Shown in pieces: positions 33,095 to 48,176 of a stretch of DNA of 64,000 bases; positions within the stretch are counted from its first letter, which is position 1, and each line of letters starts with the position of its first letter. The translations under genes were made by a program, and so were the position numbers. The notes under the pieces were generated by a model that was given only the letters and a program-made list of their open reading frames with translations, was not told the origin of the DNA and made no database searches. The stretch covers positions 1-64,000 of IMG/VR virus record IMGVR_UViG_3300031993_000012; one strand, given 5' to 3'. Origin of the DNA: a virus. Taxonomy: Duplodnaviria > Caudoviricetes.

Positions 33095-35031
33095 ATAAGC
33101 TTGAAGTATTAACAATCGTAAAAGATTGGATACATGATTTGTCATATATTAATATGGAGACCGATGTTGAACATATTATGGATACTGATGGAGATACATT
33201 TAAAGTATATTATATTTCATCAGAATTCATAATTTCGATTACGTGGCTCGCACACAGTGAGTCTATCACCATTCTTATCAATCACCAATTTATCGCATCC
33301 ATTGAAAATAATGGTGAAATAGTTTATGATGAATCATACTACGAAGAAAAGCTTAAACCATTGGTTCAGTTTGATATTCGTTCTCTGATCAGCAGACTGA
33401 AACACCCACCGACGAAAGAATTCAAAGCATTCTGTAAAGGTGTTGAAGAATGGTTATCCCATTTGAATAATTCAACATTCAAATGGTATTGGTATTCTCC
33501 AACAGTGAATTCAATCGGTAAATGTTATAAAGTTAATGTTGGACCATTCGAGCGTTTATTCCATATCGAAAACTGTGATGGTGGAATTATACTGGATATC
33601 AATTATAATCAGACAATCAAATATATCGATGGTTTGGTAACAGTATTGCCTAAATCAGTAATTAAACCATTTACGTTTGAAGAAATATCACATTTACGTG
33701 ATACGATATTTTCCAGCATGCATAATGAGGAAAACAATCTCAAAATTATACGTATTGAGGAAATATTAAAACAGTGGTTATCGGATATGTCAATGACATA
33801 TACACGTAATGGTGAACATGCATATATTGCATGTATAACACAGCGTGGTTTACACCCATCTACGCACGCTCATATCGGCGTTAGTGTTCATGAGCAGAAT
33901 CCATGTATTTGGTTGTACAACACAACCAACCGCATTATTACATTCGATCCGGATAATAATTGGGAACCGGATATGTTAACTACATATTCTAATCATTATC
34001 CATTCTCTCATACTAATCTTACGAAACTCATGGCAATGTATGTTAAAGAATTTTGTGGTATTGATTATGAATTCCGCAATACAATATTTAATACAATTGA
34101 GCAGTTTTTAAAACGCAGATATCATGGGAGAATTGCGTTATCAAAAAACAATATCAAACATGTTAGATGGAATTTCCGTGGTAAAATCTTTGAATTCGTT
34201 TGGGTTCATGACAGATGGAGAGTATCTACTACCAATTTAGGTGTACACGTTCGAATCTCTGATATTTATCCATCTGGTGATATCAATATGGGTTCATGTA
34301 TAGGCTCAGAAGAAAAAGGTCTTATCAATGAAATCCGTGAAGCCATTAAACCAGTACCGGATTCCACGGATGAAGATTTACTGGAATCTATCAGTAAAGA
34401 ATACAGAACAATCACTGATGTACTGACTGATGATTTCAAGAAGAAAGTCAAGGAACGTAATACTGTAATTAATTCCAGTGATATTAATAATGTCATTAAC
34501 GTTATTAATGCTGGTGACATCCAGGAATTTCCTAGTAAAATTGAAGTTGCTGAGTCTATATTCCATCATAGACCTATAGATGAAATCAGAAAAGAGTTCA
34601 ATGATGCAGTTCATTCAATTAAACCGGAAACACTCTGGTTTGATTCAATGACTGATGTTATTGAAAATATTAAAAAGCAGGAGGAAAAAGAAATGCTTAT
34701 TGACGAAACATTGGCTGTTAAAATTGTTAAACAGCGGGGAGGTATGTATATACCGGAAATCAAACACGTACTCTTTAATGAGACAAAGCTTGTTACTACC
34801 GTAATATTTACGGATGGTGACAGAGTCACATCCAAATGCTGTGATGAAAATGTATTCGATCCCGAAATGGGATTCGCAATGTGCATCATGAAGAAGCTTT
34901 ATGGTAATCGCACACGTTTCCAGAAGGAAATCAAGAAATATCACAACGCAGGTATTCATCGGAATATCAAAATCGCAGAAAAAGCAGCGCGTAAAGAAAA
35001 AGAAAAAGAAGAAAACGACGCTGAAATATAA
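33091..35031 (+). CDS. Multidomain hypothetical protein
   Basis: 646 aa; C-terminal IKHVLFN...TTVIFTDG...KC...FDPEMGFAMCIMKK domain seen in many Firmicute phage proteins. Confidence 0.75.
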   Translation: MNKLEVLTIVKDWIHDLSYINMETDVEHIMDTDGDTFKVYYISSEFIISITWLAHSESITILINHQFIASIENNGEIVYDESYYEEKLKPLVQFDIRSLISRLKHPPTKEFKAFCKGVEEWLSHLNNSTFKWYWYSPTVNSIGKCYKVNVGPFERLFHIENCDGGIILDINYNQTIKYIDGLVTVLPKSVIKPFTFEEISHLRDTIFSSMHNEENNLKIIRIEEILKQWLSDMSMTYTRNGEHAYIACITQRGLHPSTHAHIGVSVHEQNPCIWLYNTTNRIITFDPDNNWEPDMLTTYSNHYPFSHTNLTKLMAMYVKEFCGIDYEFRNTIFNTIEQFLKRRYHGRIALSKNNIKHVRWNFRGKIFEFVWVHDRWRVSTTNLGVHVRISDIYPSGDINMGSCIGSEEKGLINEIREAIKPVPDSTDEDLLESISKEYRTITDVLTDDFKKKVKERNTVINSSDINNVINVINAGDIQEFPSKIEVAESIFHHRPIDEIRKEFNDAVHSIKPETLWFDSMTDVIENIKKQEEKEMLIDETLAVKIVKQRGGMYIPEIKHVLFNETKLVTTVIFTDGDRVTSKCCDENVFDPEMGFAMCIMKKLYGNRTRFQKEIKKYHNAGIHRNIKIAEKAARKEKEKEENDAEI

Positions 35032-35116
35032 AAAGGCAAAAGAAGTAACATATAATTACATCAATTAGAGATTGACGAACCTGTCAACTGAATGTTCAAT
35101 GTATAATTGATGACAT

Positions 35117-35199
35117 TACCGTTTGGCGACATACACAATCACTCATGTCGTTTCGATGAGTGTCAGACAGCAATCAATGTGTATGTTCGCCGACGGGTA
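35117..35199 (+). ncRNA. Structured RNA: long closing stem enclosing hairpin + ACAGCAAT
   Basis: TTGGCGA-CATACACA pairs with TGTGTATG-t-TCGCCGA; inner CACTCAT/ATGAGTG hairpin; ACAGCAATC at 35167. Confidence 0.55.
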
Positions 35200-35204
35200 T
35201 TTGT

Positions 35205-35285
35205 GGATGTGTGGCGGAATGGCAGACGCGCTGGTCTCAAGTACCAGTTCCGAAAGGAGTGAGGTTTCGAGTACCTCCACATCTA
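35205..35285 (+). tRNA. tRNA-Leu(CAA)
   Basis: Acceptor GGATGTG/CACATCT, anticodon arm CTGGT-CTCAAGT-ACCAG, long variable arm, T-loop TTCGAGT, A73. Confidence 0.9.
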
Positions 35286-35393
35286 TTACTGGGGTTACGT
35301 TTATATTACGGCTTCTGACTTTGCGGTTCATTGCGTAACTCCAGATCACCCCTAAAACCCGGGTAGCCTTTGCGTATCTACCCGGGCAAAAAA

Positions 35394-35507
35394 CGACGGA
35401 TAACTCAGTAGGTAGAGTACGTAAAGGAATCTAGATTTAGATTCGTACAGCAATCAGCTTGCATTCTAAGCACGGTGTCGTAGGTTCGAGTCCTACTCCG
35501 TCGACCA
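35394..35507 (+). tRNA. tRNA-Arg(TCT) interrupted by a 38-nt insertion (35423-35460) in the anticodon stem
   Basis: Perfect acceptor CGACGGA/TCCGTCG-A-CCA, D and T arms; removing the insert gives CGTGC-ATTCTAA-GCACG. Confidence 0.75.
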
Positions 35508-35508
35508 A

Positions 35509-35608
35509 TGGTCATGATGGGTAATTCCCCATCTTGTATTTAAGATGGTAACAGCAATCATCGGTGAATAAATGACGTTCGAATCGTAAATATTATTCAT
35601 CATGACCA
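35509..35608 (+). ncRNA. tRNA-like RNA with long terminal stem, hairpin + ACAGCAAT and a T-loop
   Basis: TGGTCATGATGGGTAAT pairs with ATTATTCATCATGACCA; CCATCTT/AAGATGG hairpin; ACG-TTCGAAT-CGT. Confidence 0.6.
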
Positions 35609-35614
35609 ATCTAT

Positions 35615-35722
35615 GCGGATATTAGCTCAATTGGATAGAGCGTACGGCCATAAGGAATCTAGATTTAGATTCGTACAGCAATAACACCATAAGGTTATCA
35701 GTTCGAATCTGATATATCCGCG
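35615..35722 (+). tRNA. tRNA-like gene whose anticodon loop is replaced by the hairpin+ACAGCA insert; anticodon unassignable
   Basis: 8-bp acceptor GCGGATAT/ATATCCGC, D arm GCTC-AATTGGATA-GAGC (A20, Arg-like), T arm ATCAG-TTCGAAT-CTGAT. Confidence 0.65.
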
Positions 35723-35731
35723 AATCAAACC

Positions 35732-35830
35732 CATTAGCCGCATAGTTTAGAATAGGTTAAAACGCTGAATATAATCTGAGCATACTAGGACTATTCGGAA
35801 AAGGTTGTTCGAATCGACCTGGGGTTAATG
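35732..35830 (+). tRNA. Degenerate tRNA-like element with 20-nt anticodon loop
   Basis: D arm GTTT-AGAATAGGTTA-AAAC, CTGAATA/TATTCGG stem, T-loop GTTCGAATC, terminal CATTAGCC/GGTTAATG pairing. Confidence 0.5.
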
Positions 35831-35843
35831 AGTTTAATCATAT

Positions 35844-35955
35844 GAAGGTGTTAGTTTAGTTGGTTAAAACGCGTTAAGGAATCTAGTGATAGATTCGTAC
35901 AGCATATTATTTGCATATGGCGCACGAGACACATGTTCAAATCATGTACACCTTC
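35844..35955 (+). tRNA. tRNA-His-like (ATG anticodon) interrupted by a 38-nt insertion (35875-35912)
   Basis: G-1:C73 pair, acceptor AAGGTGT/ACACCTT; removing the insert gives CGTGC-ATATGGC-GCACG. Confidence 0.7.
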
Positions 35956-35963
35956 TTCCAGAT

Positions 35964-36570
35964 GTGACATTAGCGCAGTCGGTAGCGCATTCGCTTTAAA
36001 GGAGAAATAATATGGAATTATCAACACATGCTAAAGGAGTTGTAACAGAATTAGCTGTACAACAAGCATTCATTAAACATGGATTCGGCGTATCAGTCCC
36101 AGTGTTACCCACTTCTAGATATGACATGATTGCTGATATTGATAGCAATTTATTCAAAGTCCAAATTAAAACAGCTAAGAAACTTCCAAATTCAGATGCC
36201 TTTATGATCAGAACGAAATCAACTAGAACACATCGATACGGTGTATCCGTTGTTAAATATACAGCGGATGAAATTGATATGTTTGCTACATGTTATAATG
36301 GTGATGTCTATGTTGTTCCACAATATTTAGCACAAGGAACTGAATTCATTTTTAGAAATTCATCAGCGAGTAACCAGAAAGTTGGTATTCATTTTGCATC
36401 TGATTTTAAGTTGGATAATGTTGTTGAAAAATGGAGAAATCAATCATTATCATTCAACAATAACCAACTTTATTTGAATAATAATGTATTATGATTATAT
36501 GATATTATTCAAATATAATAATTATCCTTTAAAGCGTGGGTCGTGGATTCGAGTTCCACATGTCACACCA
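35964..36570 (+). tRNA. tRNA split in the anticodon loop by an ORF-containing insertion of about 530 nt (halves 35964-36000 and 36528-36570)
   Basis: Acceptor GTGACAT/ATGTCAC-A-CCA, D arm GCGC-AGTCGGTA-GCGC, T arm GTGGA-TTCGAGT-TCCAC. Confidence 0.75.
36012..36494 (+). CDS. PD-(D/E)XK endonuclease, I-Ssp6803I-like homing endonuclease family
   Basis: KGVVTEL...G..VSVP...RYDMIAD....KVQIKT...Y...EIDMFA signature; AAAGGAG RBS inside the tRNA insertion. Confidence 0.88.
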   Translation: MELSTHAKGVVTELAVQQAFIKHGFGVSVPVLPTSRYDMIADIDSNLFKVQIKTAKKLPNSDAFMIRTKSTRTHRYGVSVVKYTADEIDMFATCYNGDVYVVPQYLAQGTEFIFRNSSASNQKVGIHFASDFKLDNVVEKWRNQSLSFNNNQLYLNNNVL

Positions 36571-36782
36571 TTGCGGTCTTCAGACAGCCGCAACAATTCC
36601 TAATCACGGCTGGCACTTATACATCCCTTCGTGTCAGCCACATATGTAACCAATGAGCTTGTCCATCTCAGAGGTTGCACCTCAATTGACAGCGATATCC
36701 ACGCCGCTGTTACATATCCTTTCATTTACGGCAGCTCCTTCGGGAGCTGCTGTAGTACCATTTATCTTTAGGAGGAATTTTT

Positions 36783-37523
36783 ATGTTACCCGAAATAATC
36801 AATTATGCTGATGAGAAAACTCACGAATTTCGTAAATCCATTGTCAGTGGTAAACCAAAAACAATATTGGTTATACATGATGATGACAGATCGAAATATC
36901 TTGGATTGTTTGCTATGTTAAGCGGCAATAAATGTGAGATAATAAACAATTCAACCGCAATGTATCATATATCCCACGACGTTATATTTGACGATGGTAT
37001 ATCAATTGATGATATTACATTCAATATATTTGATAAAGGTAATCTTTCTGAAACTCATGTCAGAATGGTAAAAATGCCAGATGATATATTAAATGAAACC
37101 ATCAGAGATATTGCATTAGGTAAAATAACCGAAGCTCCATTAGTAGTAAGCTTGTTGACGATGTATGAAAAATGTAATGGTACGGAATATATGACCAAAG
37201 TATACACAGATGTCAGATGCGATGATAAAACTGTCGATTTATATCATGATAATCATTATAATGTCACATCAAATTCAGAGAGAATCAAATCTACGGATCC
37301 TTATGATCAGATGGAAACAGCCATGATATTTAAAAACTATTTATCATATGGATTGACTGTGTGGTATATATTCCAAAAGGTCATTGGTGATGATGAATTA
37401 AAACAGTTCGTCACCAAATGCAAATGTAAACACAAATATTGTGGTAAAGAAATAACTGTTACTAAATATTCAATAGCATGTCAGAAATTGATACTTCATT
37501 TGGCTGAACGTATGAAAAAATAA
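36783..37523 (+). CDS. Hypothetical protein
   Basis: 246 aa, AGGAGG RBS. Confidence 0.75.
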   Translation: MLPEIINYADEKTHEFRKSIVSGKPKTILVIHDDDRSKYLGLFAMLSGNKCEIINNSTAMYHISHDVIFDDGISIDDITFNIFDKGNLSETHVRMVKMPDDILNETIRDIALGKITEAPLVVSLLTMYEKCNGTEYMTKVYTDVRCDDKTVDLYHDNHYNVTSNSERIKSTDPYDQMETAMIFKNYLSYGLTVWYIFQKVIGDDELKQFVTKCKCKHKYCGKEITVTKYSIACQKLILHLAERMKK

Positions 37524-37602
37524 TATGATATCCCCAGATAATTCTGGGGATATATTTTTTGTGTAATATGAACATTAGAGTATAAAAACATTACATGAAT
37601 GA

Positions 37603-37677
37603 TTCCGTATCGCCAAGGGGTTAAGGCAGATGTCTTTGAAGCATCTATCGCTCGTTCGATCCGAGCTACGGAAACCA
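37603..37677 (+). tRNA. tRNA-Gln(TTG)
   Basis: Acceptor TTCCGTA/TACGGAA-A-CCA, anticodon arm GATGT-CTTTGAA-GCATC, T-loop TTCGATC. Confidence 0.9.
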
Positions 37678-37919
37678 AAGGAAGTTTACTTCCAAACAGA
37701 TGTGAGGTTCACGTTTTCACATTTGTCTCCTTAACTTTTAGCCATGTGGATACTAGTTGCCACCTTCTCTGGTATCCACGCGCTTCTTTTGTTCTATATC
37801 CTACTTCTAATTTTAGCCCGGGTTATTCCCGGGCATCTATTTTTTTCAAATTCCATATTTATATTATTTAATTGGATTCTATGAACGTAGAATCAAAAAT
37901 ATATCGGAGGTATAAAAAT

Positions 37920-37994
37920 ATGTTTGCAAAATTAATCGAATTCATTAGAGGTATCGTATCATTCCTGAGCGGAATGTTATTTGCCATCAGATAA
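37920..37994 (+). CDS. 24-aa amphipathic/hydrophobic peptide MFAKLIEFIRGIVSFLSGMLFAIR
   Basis: GGAGGT RBS, first ORF after the promoter motif at about 37850; stop overlaps the next RBS. Confidence 0.5.
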   Translation: MFAKLIEFIRGIVSFLSGMLFAIR

Positions 37995-38007
37995 GGAGGA
38001 ACATAAA

Positions 38008-47295: not shown

Positions 47296-47396
47296 AATAG
47301 GAAAGTAACACTTTCTATTATCATATAATATCAATCTTTACGGGTTGTTCCCAGTGTATCTGTACAGATATGCGAATAACAAGAAAGGAGTACGTT

Positions 47397-48176
47397 ATGG
47401 CACGTACAAAGAAAACAACAGTAGAGGAAGCAACTGAGGAGAAGGTTGCATTCCAGCCCAAGAAGACAGTGAAGCTGTTCTTCTTCACAGAAATCCTTGG
47501 AAGCTGCCCCGCAGACAAGGAGATCTACTCAAAGTACATCGCAAAGAATCGTCTTGATGCACCAACCATTCAGGACGAACTCCAGATGGTACCTGAGGAA
47601 GAAGTTATCGAGCAGGGAACCACTTGCTTCCTGGTGAGGACCCACGGAAAGGATAAGGGTAAGCCCTGTCTGGCAGCGTATACAATTCTCGGTTTCATGA
47701 AAGAGAAGACCAAGTATCTCCGTCAGGAACCCGGTAATGGATTTGACAAATTCACCAACTACAAGTCCAAAATCGATGGTAATTTCAACATTGATAAACC
47801 GTTCATTACATTACATCTTCCCGAAGGAGAAGAAATGGGTATCTGTCAGAGACCTCTCAGGGCCGAGACTGCGCAGGGTCCGAGAGTAGCACTCGCTTCC
47901 AGCCTCACATGCCCTCCCGGTACAACCTGCGAATTCGAGCTCTATATCAATAACAAGGAGTTCAATAAGTACGCAATCGGTTGTCTCCGTAAAGGTTTCC
48001 TCAGTGGAACCGGTCAGTGGCGTTCTTCTCAGCAGAAAGGCAGATTCCTGTTTGAAATCTATGATGCTGATGATACTTATATTGACGGTAATACCAAAGA
48101 ACATGTAGGTTGTCTTTCAACTGATGCCAACTGGGAAGAAATGTGGAGCGACTTCCTCGACGAATATCGTCTGTAA
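47397..48176 (+). CDS. Stand-alone Cas7/RAMP-superfamily-like protein
   Basis: N-terminal strand + ILGS, PCLAAYTILGFMKE (P.I...S.KG..R equivalent), CPPGTTCEFEL strand, Gly-rich loop GTGQWRSSQQKGRF; AAAGGAG RBS. Confidence 0.75.
   Translation: MARTKKTTVEEATEEKVAFQPKKTVKLFFFTEILGSCPADKEIYSKYIAKNRLDAPTIQDELQMVPEEEVIEQGTTCFLVRTHGKDKGKPCLAAYTILGFMKEKTKYLRQEPGNGFDKFTNYKSKIDGNFNIDKPFITLHLPEGEEMGICQRPLRAETAQGPRVALASSLTCPPGTTCEFELYINNKEFNKYAIGCLRKGFLSGTGQWRSSQQKGRFLFEIYDADDTYIDGNTKEHVGCLSTDANWEEMWSDFLDEYRL

What the first reader, a model, noticed from the sequence alone, without database searches (positions are those of the whole stretch)
35394..35955. Two tRNAs carry a related 38-nt insertion at the same non-canonical site (about 29/30) in the anticodon stem
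Seen: inserts 35423-35460 (aaagGAATCTAgattTAGATTCgtacagcaatcagctt) and 35875-35912 (taagGAATCTAgtgaTAGATTCgtacagcatattattt) are both 38 nt, keep a 7-bp stem with a variable loop, and follow CGT. Removing them gives the same perfect CGTGC/GCACG stem with 7-nt loops (TCT = Arg; ATG = His with G-1:C73). Established: bacterial tRNA introns are normally group I/II ribozymes of over 200 nt, and short enzyme-spliced introns are archaeal/eukaryotic. Inference: a tiny protein-spliced phage tRNA intron class, or unspliced tRNA mimics that evade or decoy host anticodon nucleases.
Basis: partly seen in the sequence, partly recalled or inferred. Interest (0 to 1): 0.85.

Follow-up and report, generated by a model that had tools for sequence, protein, structure and literature searches.

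The report
Phage tRNAs carrying a Ro-protein handle
The 38-base inserts are real, but they are most likely not introns: they match a conserved RNA "handle" (hairpin plus ACAGCAA) that in many other phages sits inside tRNA-shaped genes just upstream of a Ro60-like protein gene, so these look like an undescribed, normal-order form of tRNA-like Y RNAs.

Summary
The hairpin + GT + ACAGCA module occurs three times exactly in the window, with a divergent fourth copy that has compensatory stem changes and a possible fifth in the array leader. Removing 38-39 nt restores a standard tRNA in 6 of 6 intact copies from this phage and its relatives.

The module is not private to this lineage. A pattern for "tRNA D arm ... 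ACAGCAA ... T loop" found at least 111 viral stretches, against 3 for a control 7-mer. Of the 110 loci, 70 encode a DUF2828/Ro-like protein. All 70 are on the same strand, and in 65 the gene starts 95-1046 nt downstream. A covariance model built only from those foreign modules finds exactly the window's four copies in 182 kb.

Best reading (about 0.55): unspliced, handle-tagged tRNA mimics, a normal-order relative of YrlA-type Y RNAs. A protein-spliced intron stays possible (about 0.22).

Main caveat: no DUF2828, TROVE, RtcB or EndA gene was found in the 182 kb held (68% complete) or in two relatives.

This scan noted the same handle earlier on other DNA. I used those notes as leads and re-tested them here. 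I found no published description of the normal-order form.

The parts
35394..35507 (+). W1: tRNA-shaped gene. It has an Arg(UCU)-type anticodon arm and CCA is encoded. The handle insert splits the 5' strand of the anticodon stem at 29/30.
   Evidence: Rfam tRNA 44.4 bits with a gap over the anticodon arm. ARAGORN calls tRNA-Arg(TCT) after removal of the insert. CM R1 gives 38.6 bits, E 1.9e-7, at 35419-35474.
35423..35460 (+). W1 insert, 38 nt: linker AAAG, hairpin 35427-35444 (GAATCTA-GATT-TAGATTC), GT, ACAGCAA at 35447-35453, tail TCAGCTT.
35615..35724 (+). W2: tRNA-shaped gene with intact 8-bp acceptor stem (G-1:C73), D arm and T arm. An exact copy of the handle (hairpin 35655-35672, ACAGCAATAA 35675-35684) takes the place of an anticodon arm.
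   Evidence: CM R1 gives 24 bits, E 0.003, at 35655-35682. No 5-bp anticodon stem can be restored (reading).
35844..35956 (+). W3: tRNA-shaped gene with G-1:C73 and anticodon loop ATATGGC (AUG). The handle insert sits at 29/30.
   Evidence: ARAGORN calls tRNA-His(ATG) after removal of the insert. CM R1 gives 20.7 bits, E 0.027, at 35879-35916.
35875..35912 (+). W3 insert, 38 nt: TAAG, hairpin GAATCTA-GTGA-TAGATTC, GT, ACAGCAT, tail ATTATTT.
35510..35607 (+). Region A: degenerate tRNA-like RNA closed by a 10-bp stem (GGTCATGATG/CATCATGACC). It carries a divergent handle: CCATCTTG-TATT-TAAGATGG, then TA, then ACAGCAATCA (35551-35560).
   Evidence: CM R1 gives 22.3 bits, E 0.0096, at 35529-35561. 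Stem differences from the other copies are compensatory.
35125..35191 (+). Leader element upstream of tRNA-Leu: a 13-bp outer stem encloses the hairpin CACTCAT/ATGAGTG (35140-35162), followed by TCAG and ACAGCAATCA (35167-35176). This is a possible fifth handle copy.
   Evidence: CM R1 does not hit it at E <= 1, so it is tentative.

Best explanation
W1 and W3, together with W2, Region A and perhaps the leader element, are RNAs of a widespread phage family. In this family a tRNA-shaped body carries a conserved handle: a 7-8 bp hairpin with a GNNN loop, 1-3 nt, then single-stranded ACAGCAA. In most other phages the gene for such an RNA lies just upstream of, and on the same strand as, a gene for a Ro60-like ring protein (DUF2828 + DUF7788/vWA, annotated 'Ro-like RNA binding protein').

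Proposed working:
- The RNAs are transcribed with the tRNA array.
- Their ends are processed like tRNA ends.
- The insert stays in the RNA and juts out of the anticodon stem at 28/29-29/30. This is the same place relative to the tRNA elbow where the Ro-binding stem leaves the tRNA-like domain of YrlA Y RNAs.
- The insert docks the Ro-like protein, while the tRNA body, and in W1 and W3 a complete anticodon loop, is displayed as a mimic.

Shown here: the family, its covarying hairpin, its fixed insertion site, its linkage to the protein gene, and the membership of the window's copies.

Inferred: that the protein binds the handle, that the insert is not removed, and what the particle does. RNA repair or quality control, or bait for tRNA-cutting defence enzymes, are the natural guesses.
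For: (1) The handle recurs beside the Ro-like gene in unrelated phages.
- Felix O1 ORF86 is DUF2828 (E 1e-28) + DUF7788 (E 3e-43). It sits directly upstream of a tRNA array with four '...AGAAGACC-NNNN-ACAGCAA' elements.
- Listeria cka15, Enterococcus Bop, Mycobacterium Whirlwind and Campylobacter F374 each have 2-4 ACAGCAA copies on the gene strand within about 500 nt of the homologue, and none on the other strand.
- Those RNAs give sub-threshold Rfam YrlA hits (47.7 bits, E 6e-8; 38.3 bits).

(2) The tRNA-embedded form is linked to the gene.
- The pattern GGTAGAG..ACAGCAA..GGTTCGA gave at least 111 viral stretches, against 3 for the control 7-mer.
- 70 of 110 loci hold a DUF2828-like ORF. All 70 are on the same strand, and in 65 the gene starts 95-1046 nt downstream.

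(3) The hairpin is structural. All 7 predicted pairs show compensatory changes across 29 sequences.

(4) Membership. CM R1, built only from DUF2828-adjacent modules of other phages, hits W1 (E 1.9e-7), W2 (0.003), Region A (0.0096) and W3 (0.027). Nothing else in this genome's 182 kb reaches E <= 0.1; the only other match in it is at E 0.71.

(5) The handle outlives the tRNA. W2 and Region A keep the handle and their closing stems but have no usable anticodon arm.

(6) The anticodons behave like display items rather than decoders.
- The same body carries different anticodons in relatives: L001 ATG vs L067 CTG; L110 TCT vs L152 GTT; L094 TGG vs L162 ATG.
- The loops AAATGAA and AACTGGA have A33.
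- GCT (Ser) members have class I bodies and sit beside an ordinary tRNA-Ser(GCT).
- Family anticodons are duplicated by ordinary tRNAs in the same locus 19 times out of 83, against 15 +/- 2.9 expected. There is no avoidance.

(7) Published precedent. YrlA Y RNAs are stable tRNA mimics encoded next to Ro60 genes, including in mycobacteriophages (PMC4201824).
Against: - No DUF2828, DUF7788 or TROVE gene was found in the 182 kb held for this phage, in the records of L001 and L002, or in the fetched flanks of L064 and L067. In this lineage the partner is unproven. The record is only 68% complete, and the host is unknown.
- The published Ro-binding motif GNCGAAN0-1G is absent from the module, and Rfam YrlA does not hit the window.
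- Perfect split anticodon stems occur in 71 of 98 family members. U33 is present in 57 of 71 and a purine at position 37 in 66 of 71. The G-1:C73 feature with a His anticodon appears in two different bodies. AGA and CAT are common codons in the phage. All of this is what one would expect if the insert were removed to give working tRNAs.
- Binding of the handle by the protein has not been shown for any member. It rests on gene linkage and analogy.
Confidence: 0.55

Rival explanations
1. Protein-spliced mini-intron, or 'pro-tRNA'. The insert is cut out at the two stem junctions and the halves are joined by an RNA ligase such as RtcB, giving working tRNA-Arg(UCU) and tRNA-His(AUG). The handle and its Ro-like binder could act as the splicing or timing cofactor.
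For: - Exact removal restores ARAGORN-standard tRNAs in 6 of 6 intact copies, although the insert length differs (38 vs 39 nt).
- Family-wide, split stems are perfect in 71 of 98. The split site is fixed in 58 of 71. U33 and R37 are mostly kept.
- W3 and the L001 type combine G-1:C73 with a His anticodon.
- The phage uses AGA for 26% of Arg codons and CAT for 81% of His codons.
- An RtcB 'tRNA splicing ligase' lies 1.3 kb from the DUF2828 gene in Listeria phage cka15, and RtcB-like ORFs are present in loci L157, L148 and L119.
- Lak megaphages have unexplained, conserved tRNA introns (PMC6784885).
Against: - No endonuclease candidate exists: no EndA and no RtcB in the 182 kb, and no RNA ligase family among 116 ORFs screened.
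- No bulge-helix-bulge motif is present.
- Linker and tail lengths vary, so the cuts could not be measured from the hairpin.
- W2 and Region A keep the handle without any tRNA to restore.
- The L001 and L067 loops have A33.
- The same body carries different anticodons in relatives.
- Ser-anticodon members lack the long variable arm.
- There is no avoidance of anticodons already supplied by ordinary tRNAs.
Confidence: 0.22
2. Selfish or decaying DNA. On this reading, a small mobile palindromic element has inserted into and killed phage tRNA genes, and the genes are pseudogenes with no RNA-level role.
For: - Several identical copies lie in one 800-nt stretch.
- Degenerate tRNA-like neighbours are present (W2, Region A, 35735-35828).
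- The neighbouring tRNA-Lys is interrupted by a homing-endonuclease ORF.
Against: - There are no target-site duplications or terminal repeats.
- No copy lies outside tRNA-like genes in 182 kb.
- The hairpin changes by compensatory substitutions.
- The split anticodon stems stay perfectly paired across many lineages.
- The linkage and orientation relative to one protein gene are strict.
Confidence: 0.06
3. Solitary CRISPR-repeat mimic (RNA anti-CRISPR) displayed on a tRNA scaffold. The hairpin plus a conserved 8-nt 3' flank (GTACAGCA) resembles a Cas6-type repeat.
For: The architecture is a hairpin, then exactly 8 conserved nt, then variable sequence.
Against: - Exact-core scans of 185,579 species genomes and of the metagenome collection found no CRISPR-like arrays with this repeat. 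They returned only the phage tRNA-like genes and chance hits.
- The family-wide conserved part is ACAGCAA, with free variation in the stem. That pattern fits a shared protein partner, not host-specific repeats.
Confidence: 0.03

Closest known systems
YrlA-type Y RNAs with Ro60/Rsr in bacteria and mycobacteriophages (Chen et al. 2014, PMC4201824; Rfam RF02553), and Thermus phage phiLo Ro60 with Yrl1/2 (PMC12135203)
   Same: - Both are small RNAs with tRNA-like D and T arms, encoded next to and on the same strand as a Ro60-like ring protein gene, often among tRNA genes and sometimes near RtcB.
- In both, the protein-binding element leaves the tRNA-like domain where the anticodon stem would be.
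- Phage RNAs that carry ACAGCAA beside DUF2828 genes give sub-threshold YrlA hits.
   Different: - YrlA is circularly permuted: its ends lie in the Ro-binding stem and the acceptor is closed by a loop. It has no anticodon loop and carries GNCGAAN0-1G.
- Here the tRNA is in normal order with free acceptor ends.
- The handle is a closed hairpin + ACAGCAA inserted at 29/30.
- A full anticodon stem-loop is kept.
- RF02553 does not hit the window.
- The partner family in relatives is DUF2828, not Pfam TROVE, and no partner gene is found in this genome.
'Enigmatic' conserved tRNA introns of Lak megaphages (Devoto et al. 2019, PMC6784885, Supplementary Table 6)
   Same: Both are short, ribozyme-less, highly conserved inserts in tRNA genes of large gut phages. 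Both have no Rfam match, and the mechanism is unknown.
   Different: - Lak inserts sit in the anticodon loop at about 37/38 and are 79-114 nt.
- They begin with a 4-5 bp hairpin with an A-rich loop.
- They contain a T-arm/acceptor-like mini-tRNA.
- They have no ACAGCAA handle.
Archaeal protein-spliced tRNA introns at non-canonical positions (bulge-helix-bulge, EndA + RtcB; review PMC4090602)
   Same: Both are short inserts in the anticodon stem, at a non-canonical position such as 29/30, that restore a tRNA when removed.
   Different: - No bulge-helix-bulge can be drawn.
- No EndA or RtcB is in the genome held.
- The setting is bacterial-type: Shine-Dalgarno sites, and a dockerin-bearing phage protein that points to a Firmicute host.
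Group I introns of bacterial and phage tRNA genes (PMC3984707)
   Same: Both interrupt the anticodon region of tRNA genes in bacteria and phages.
   Different: - 38 nt cannot hold a ribozyme core of 200 nt or more.
- There is no Rfam intron hit at E <= 10.
- The insert lies in the stem, not the loop.

Membership tests
Handle-in-anticodon-stem tRNA family (defined here; CM R1) | A 7-8 bp hairpin with a 4-nt (mostly GNNN) loop, then 1-3 nt, then ACAGCAA | tested here: met
   W1, W2 and Region A carry the full motif. W3 has ACAGCAT. The family hairpin covaries at 7 of 7 pairs.
Handle-in-anticodon-stem tRNA family (defined here; CM R1) | The insert splits the 5' strand of the anticodon stem after nt 2 or 3 (28/29 or 29/30), and the two pieces pair perfectly with the 3' strand | tested here: met
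   W1 and W3 split after nt 3, giving CGTGC/GCACG. This holds for 58 of 71 family members, and CGTGC/GCACG is the commonest stem. It is not met by W2 or Region A.
Handle-in-anticodon-stem tRNA family (defined here; CM R1) | Significant score against a covariance model built from other phages' members only | tested here: met
   W1 38.6 bits, E 1.9e-7. W2 E 0.003. Region A E 0.0096. W3 E 0.027. The only other match in this genome's 182 kb is at E 0.71. E-values are rough because calibration was short.
Handle-in-anticodon-stem tRNA family (defined here; CM R1) | Encoded just upstream of, and on the same strand as, a DUF2828/Ro-like gene | tested here: not met
   Met in 70 of 110 family loci. There is no DUF2828 or DUF7788 in G000, G001 or G002, or in the flanks of L064 and L067.
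YrlA / Y RNA (Rfam RF02553; Chen et al. 2014) | tRNA-like D and T arms | tested here: met
   Rfam tRNA hit for W1. D and T arms are intact in W1, W2 and W3.
YrlA / Y RNA (Rfam RF02553; Chen et al. 2014) | Permuted order: the 5' and 3' ends form the Ro-binding stem, and the acceptor is closed by a loop | tested here: not met
   The order is that of a normal tRNA with free acceptor ends, and CCA is encoded in W1.
YrlA / Y RNA (Rfam RF02553; Chen et al. 2014) | GNCGAAN0-1G (CGAA) Ro-binding motif | tested here: not met
   The module contains no CGAA. The nearest stretch is TTCGTAC.
YrlA / Y RNA (Rfam RF02553; Chen et al. 2014) | Rfam model score | tested here: not met
   No RF02553 or RF00019 match at E <= 10 in 35000-38000.
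YrlA / Y RNA (Rfam RF02553; Chen et al. 2014) | Ro60/TROVE gene within about 4 kb on the same strand | tested here: not met
   No PF05731 match in G000, G001 or G002.
Protein-spliced (BHB) tRNA intron | Bulge-helix-bulge motif at the splice sites | tested here: not met
   No such fold appears in the RNAfold output, and none can be drawn by hand.
Protein-spliced (BHB) tRNA intron | Splicing endonuclease (PF01974) and RtcB ligase (PF01139) available | tested here: not met
   Neither is in the 182 kb. The host is unknown, so host enzymes could not be tested.
Protein-spliced (BHB) tRNA intron | Ligated mature tRNA exists in cells | not testable with these tools
   Needs RNA data.
Group I intron | Ribozyme core of about 200 nt or more with a terminal G | tested here: not met
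   The insert is 38 nt and ends in T. There is no Rfam intron hit.

The most novel reading that the evidence does not exclude
The handle marks a new, protein-dependent way of maturing phage tRNAs. The insert keeps a phage tRNA inactive, and immune to anticodon nucleases, as a Ro-like-protein-bound 'pro-tRNA'. It is then cut out and the halves sealed by RtcB-type ligase, so that bacteria-infecting viruses would have a ribozyme-free tRNA splicing pathway.
Probability: 0.2. Interest if true: 0.9.

Novelty: new variant of a known kind. Interest (0 to 1): 0.66.

Why it matters
Ro60-Y RNA particles are known from animals, some bacteria and a few phages. What they do in microbes is still poorly understood.

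This window belongs to a large family, at least 111 viral stretches, in which ordinary-order tRNAs carry a covarying hairpin + ACAGCAA handle at a fixed site in the anticodon stem. In most members the gene sits directly in front of a Ro-like protein gene. I did not find this family described in the literature I searched.

The family offers a simple, testable system for three questions:
- How is such a protein recruited to tRNA-shaped RNAs?
- What are the displayed anticodon loops for: bait for tRNA-cutting defences, RNA repair, or stored tRNAs?
- Does ribozyme-free tRNA splicing exist in phages?

The family also explains why tRNA finders miss or misname these genes in phage genomes.

This lineage adds a further case: handle RNAs without a nearby partner gene.

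Tried and rejected
- **Megablast of the region against GenBank phages:** no match.
- **Loose 15-mer scans of IMG/VR:** only L001 and L002 were real; the rest were chance hits in coding DNA.
- **Search for insert-free alleles:** scans for the 5' halves of the two tRNA bodies found none.
- **Syntenic loci through the 646-aa upstream protein:** none found. That protein has no Pfam family, and its Atlas model is poor and unlike a Ro ring.
- **Bulge-helix-bulge, group I and small ribozymes:** no fold and no Rfam match.
- **Pairing between the variable tail and the anticodon loop:** not conserved between copies (reading).
- **CRISPR-repeat mimic:** no arrays with this core were found in genome or metagenome scans.
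- **DNA operator reading of the palindrome:** rejected, because the stems change by compensatory substitutions.
- **Fold of the RAMP-like protein 47370-48173 as a possible hairpin nuclease:** pLDDT 31, unusable.
- **PDDEXK_5 as a shared factor:** absent from the records of L001 and L002.
- **DUF2828 in 401 Bacteroidota genomes:** none found. This says nothing about the host.
- **nhmmer with the lineage's own module:** found no extra copies in 182 kb.

Full report
**Observation**

The region 35100-37700 of the window is a phage tRNA array in a 182-kb IMG/VR virus record that is 68% complete. Standard ARAGORN and Rfam see only tRNA-Leu(CAA), tRNA-Gln(UUG) and a gapped tRNA hit at 35394-35504.

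The 27-nt core GGAATCTA-N4-TAGATTCGTACAGCA occurs three times, at 35426, 35654 and 35878, all on the + strand. Shuffles give 0.00 expected.

They are 38 nt, follow CGT and precede GC. Deleting them gives CGTGC/GCACG stems with 7-nt loops. ARAGORN then calls tRNA-Arg(TCT) and tRNA-His(ATG) at default settings. The latter has G-1 paired with C73.

The third exact copy lies in a tRNA-shaped gene (35615-35724). Its acceptor, D and T arms are intact, but no anticodon arm can be restored.

A fourth, divergent copy lies at 35529-35561. Its stem is CCATCTTG/TAAGATGG with loop TATT, followed by TA and ACAGCAATCA, and its stem changes are compensatory. A possible fifth copy lies in the array leader, where the hairpin 35140-35162 is followed by TCAG and ACAGCAATCA. 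The 10-mer ACAGCAATNA occurs four times within 520 nt (6 times in the window, 0.8 expected).

**Relatives of this phage**

Exact-core scans found the same insert (38-39 nt) in related contigs:
- an orthologous Arg gene in L002;
- a G-1:C73 gene in L001, L064 and L067;
- a partial variant in L061.

All six intact copies become standard tRNAs on removal of the insert. No insert-free allele of either tRNA body exists in IMG/VR.

Between L001 and L067 the body and hairpin are identical, but the anticodon loop differs (AAATGAA vs AACTGGA). Both loops have A33, which is odd for a decoding tRNA.

**What the insert is not**
- It cannot hold a ribozyme at 38 nt, and no Rfam family matches at E <= 10.
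- No bulge-helix-bulge motif can be drawn.
- The 182 kb has no splicing endonuclease, RtcB or other RNA ligase family among 116 screened ORFs.
- It is not dispersed selfish DNA: no copy lies outside tRNA-like genes in 182 kb.
- It is not a copy of a known CRISPR repeat: no arrays were found in genome or metagenome scans.

The one published precedent for ribozyme-less phage tRNA inserts is the 'enigmatic introns' of Lak megaphages. These are of a different build: they sit at 37/38, are 79-114 nt and contain an internal mini-tRNA.

**The turn in the analysis**

Earlier notes of this scan, which are AI leads and not evidence, said that a 'stem + ACAGCAA' handle travels with a Ro60-like DUF2828 protein in phage tRNA arrays. 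I tested this directly.

- Felix O1 ORF86 is DUF2828 (E 1e-28) + DUF7788 (E 3e-43). It sits directly upstream of the tRNA array, which holds four '...AGAAGACC-NNNN-ACAGCAA' elements.
- Homologues occur in 710 GenBank phage records, many annotated 'Ro-like RNA binding protein'.
- I sampled four unrelated phages: Listeria, Enterococcus, Mycobacterium and Campylobacter. In each, the gene lies beside tRNA genes and 2-4 ACAGCAA copies lie on its strand within about 500 nt.
- In those phages the architecture is 5' arm - NN - ACAGCAA - cargo - 3' arm.
- Rfam YrlA hits these RNAs below threshold but significantly (47.7 bits, E 6e-8).
- They are therefore the phage Y-RNA-like partners of the kind Chen et al. 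described (PMC4201824).

**The tRNA-embedded form**

The same pattern with the reversed 7-mer found 3.

Linkage to the protein gene:
- Of the 110 loci, 70 contain a DUF2828-like ORF (E <= 1e-5).
- In all 70 it is on the same strand as the tRNA-like gene.
- In 65 it starts 95-1046 nt downstream.

Features of the 98 distinct genes:
- 71 give a perfect split 5-bp anticodon stem.
- In 58 of those 71, the split falls after nt 2 or 3 of the stem.
- Inserts range from 38 to 55 nt.
- U33 is present in 57 of 71 and a purine at position 37 in 66 of 71.
- CGTGC/GCACG, the window's stem, is the commonest.

The hairpin is supported by compensatory changes at all 7 pairs.

A covariance model built only from DUF2828-adjacent modules of other phages was run over the 182 kb and four relatives' loci. 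It hit W1 (38.6 bits, E 1.9e-7), W2 (E 0.003), Region A (E 0.0096), W3 (E 0.027) and the relatives' copies. Nothing else reached E <= 0.1. Membership of the window's elements in this family therefore rests on an objective test.

**Spliced or not?**

In favour of removal:
- the split stems are perfect;
- the anticodon loops look canonical;
- His identity elements are paired with a His anticodon in two different bodies;
- AGA (26% of Arg codons) and CAT (81% of His codons) are common in the phage;
- RtcB lies near the partner gene in some phages.

Against removal:
- there is no nuclease candidate or motif;
- linker and tail lengths vary;
- W2 and Region A have the handle but nothing to restore;
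- some loops have A33;
- the same body carries different anticodons in relatives (ATG/CTG, TCT/GTT, TGG/ATG);
- members with a Ser anticodon (GCT) have class I bodies and sit beside an ordinary tRNA-Ser(GCT);
- family anticodons are duplicated by ordinary tRNAs in the same locus as often as chance predicts (19 of 83 against 15 +/- 2.9).

Add the published fact that YrlA Y RNAs are stable, unspliced tRNA mimics encoded next to Ro60. On balance I favour the unspliced, handle-tagged mimic at about 0.55 and splicing at about 0.22.

**Main weakness for this window**

Neither DUF2828/DUF7788 nor TROVE is found in the 182 kb, in the records of L001 and L002, or in the flanks of L064 and L067. The partner may lie in the missing third of the genome, may be supplied by the host, or may have been lost. 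Some other family loci with 5-kb flanks also lack the gene, for example L162.

**Comparison and novelty**

The system works like a Ro60-Y RNA pair but fails the tests for YrlA membership:
- the order is normal, not permuted;
- there is no CGAA motif;
- Rfam YrlA does not hit the window;
- no adjacent Ro gene is present here.

I found no paper that describes normal-order tRNAs with a Ro-type handle in the anticodon stem. I file it as a new variant of a known kind. The same handle was noted before by this scan on other DNA.

Noticed in passing
window 35964-36570 (ORF 36012-36494): tRNA-Lys(UUU) is interrupted in its anticodon loop by a 530-nt insert. Almost all of the insert is a 160-aa PD-(D/E)XK homing-endonuclease ORF (PF11645, E 1e-19) with its own Shine-Dalgarno site. 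Only about 47 nt are non-coding, the insert does not end in G, and Rfam finds no intron, so there is no room for a group I core. Relatives L002, L064, L067 and L069 have an uninterrupted tRNA-Lys.
   Followed up: partly
L001 vs L067; L110 vs L152; L094 vs L162: Nearly identical handle-bearing tRNA bodies carry different anticodon loops in related phages: ATG vs CTG, TCT vs GTT, TGG vs ATG. Differences cluster in the anticodon loop and tail, which suggests fast turnover or swapping of the displayed anticodon.
   Followed up: partly
L087 5310-6455 (Listeria phage cka15); L157 5113-6234: An RtcB-type 'tRNA splicing ligase' gene lies 1-2 kb from the DUF2828 gene and its handle RNAs. This echoes the rsr-yrlBA-rtcBA operon of Salmonella.
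   Followed up: no
L048 2439-2510: In an unrelated phage tRNA array there is a 5'-truncated copy: TAGATTCGTACAGCA, followed after about 35 nt by the same T arm (ACAGGTTCGAGTCCTGT) as the L001-type gene. It looks like a broken relative of the window's element.
   Followed up: no
window 35735-35828: Another degenerate tRNA-like sequence, with an imperfect acceptor stem and a T arm, lies between W2 and W3. It has no recognisable handle. The array holds several decayed tRNA-like genes.
   Followed up: no
window 35358-35388 and L002 2478-2505: A conserved GC-rich hairpin (CCCGGGTAG...CTACCCGGG) followed by an A run lies directly upstream of the Arg-type gene in both phages. It is possibly a processing signal or a minus-strand terminator.
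   Followed up: no
G000 beyond the window (Pfam screen): The genome encodes a reverse transcriptase (RVT_1), a MYG1-type exonuclease, a DHH/DHHA1 protein, a ThyX, a deaminase and a dockerin-bearing protein. The dockerin suggests a cellulosome-producing Firmicute host.
   Followed up: no
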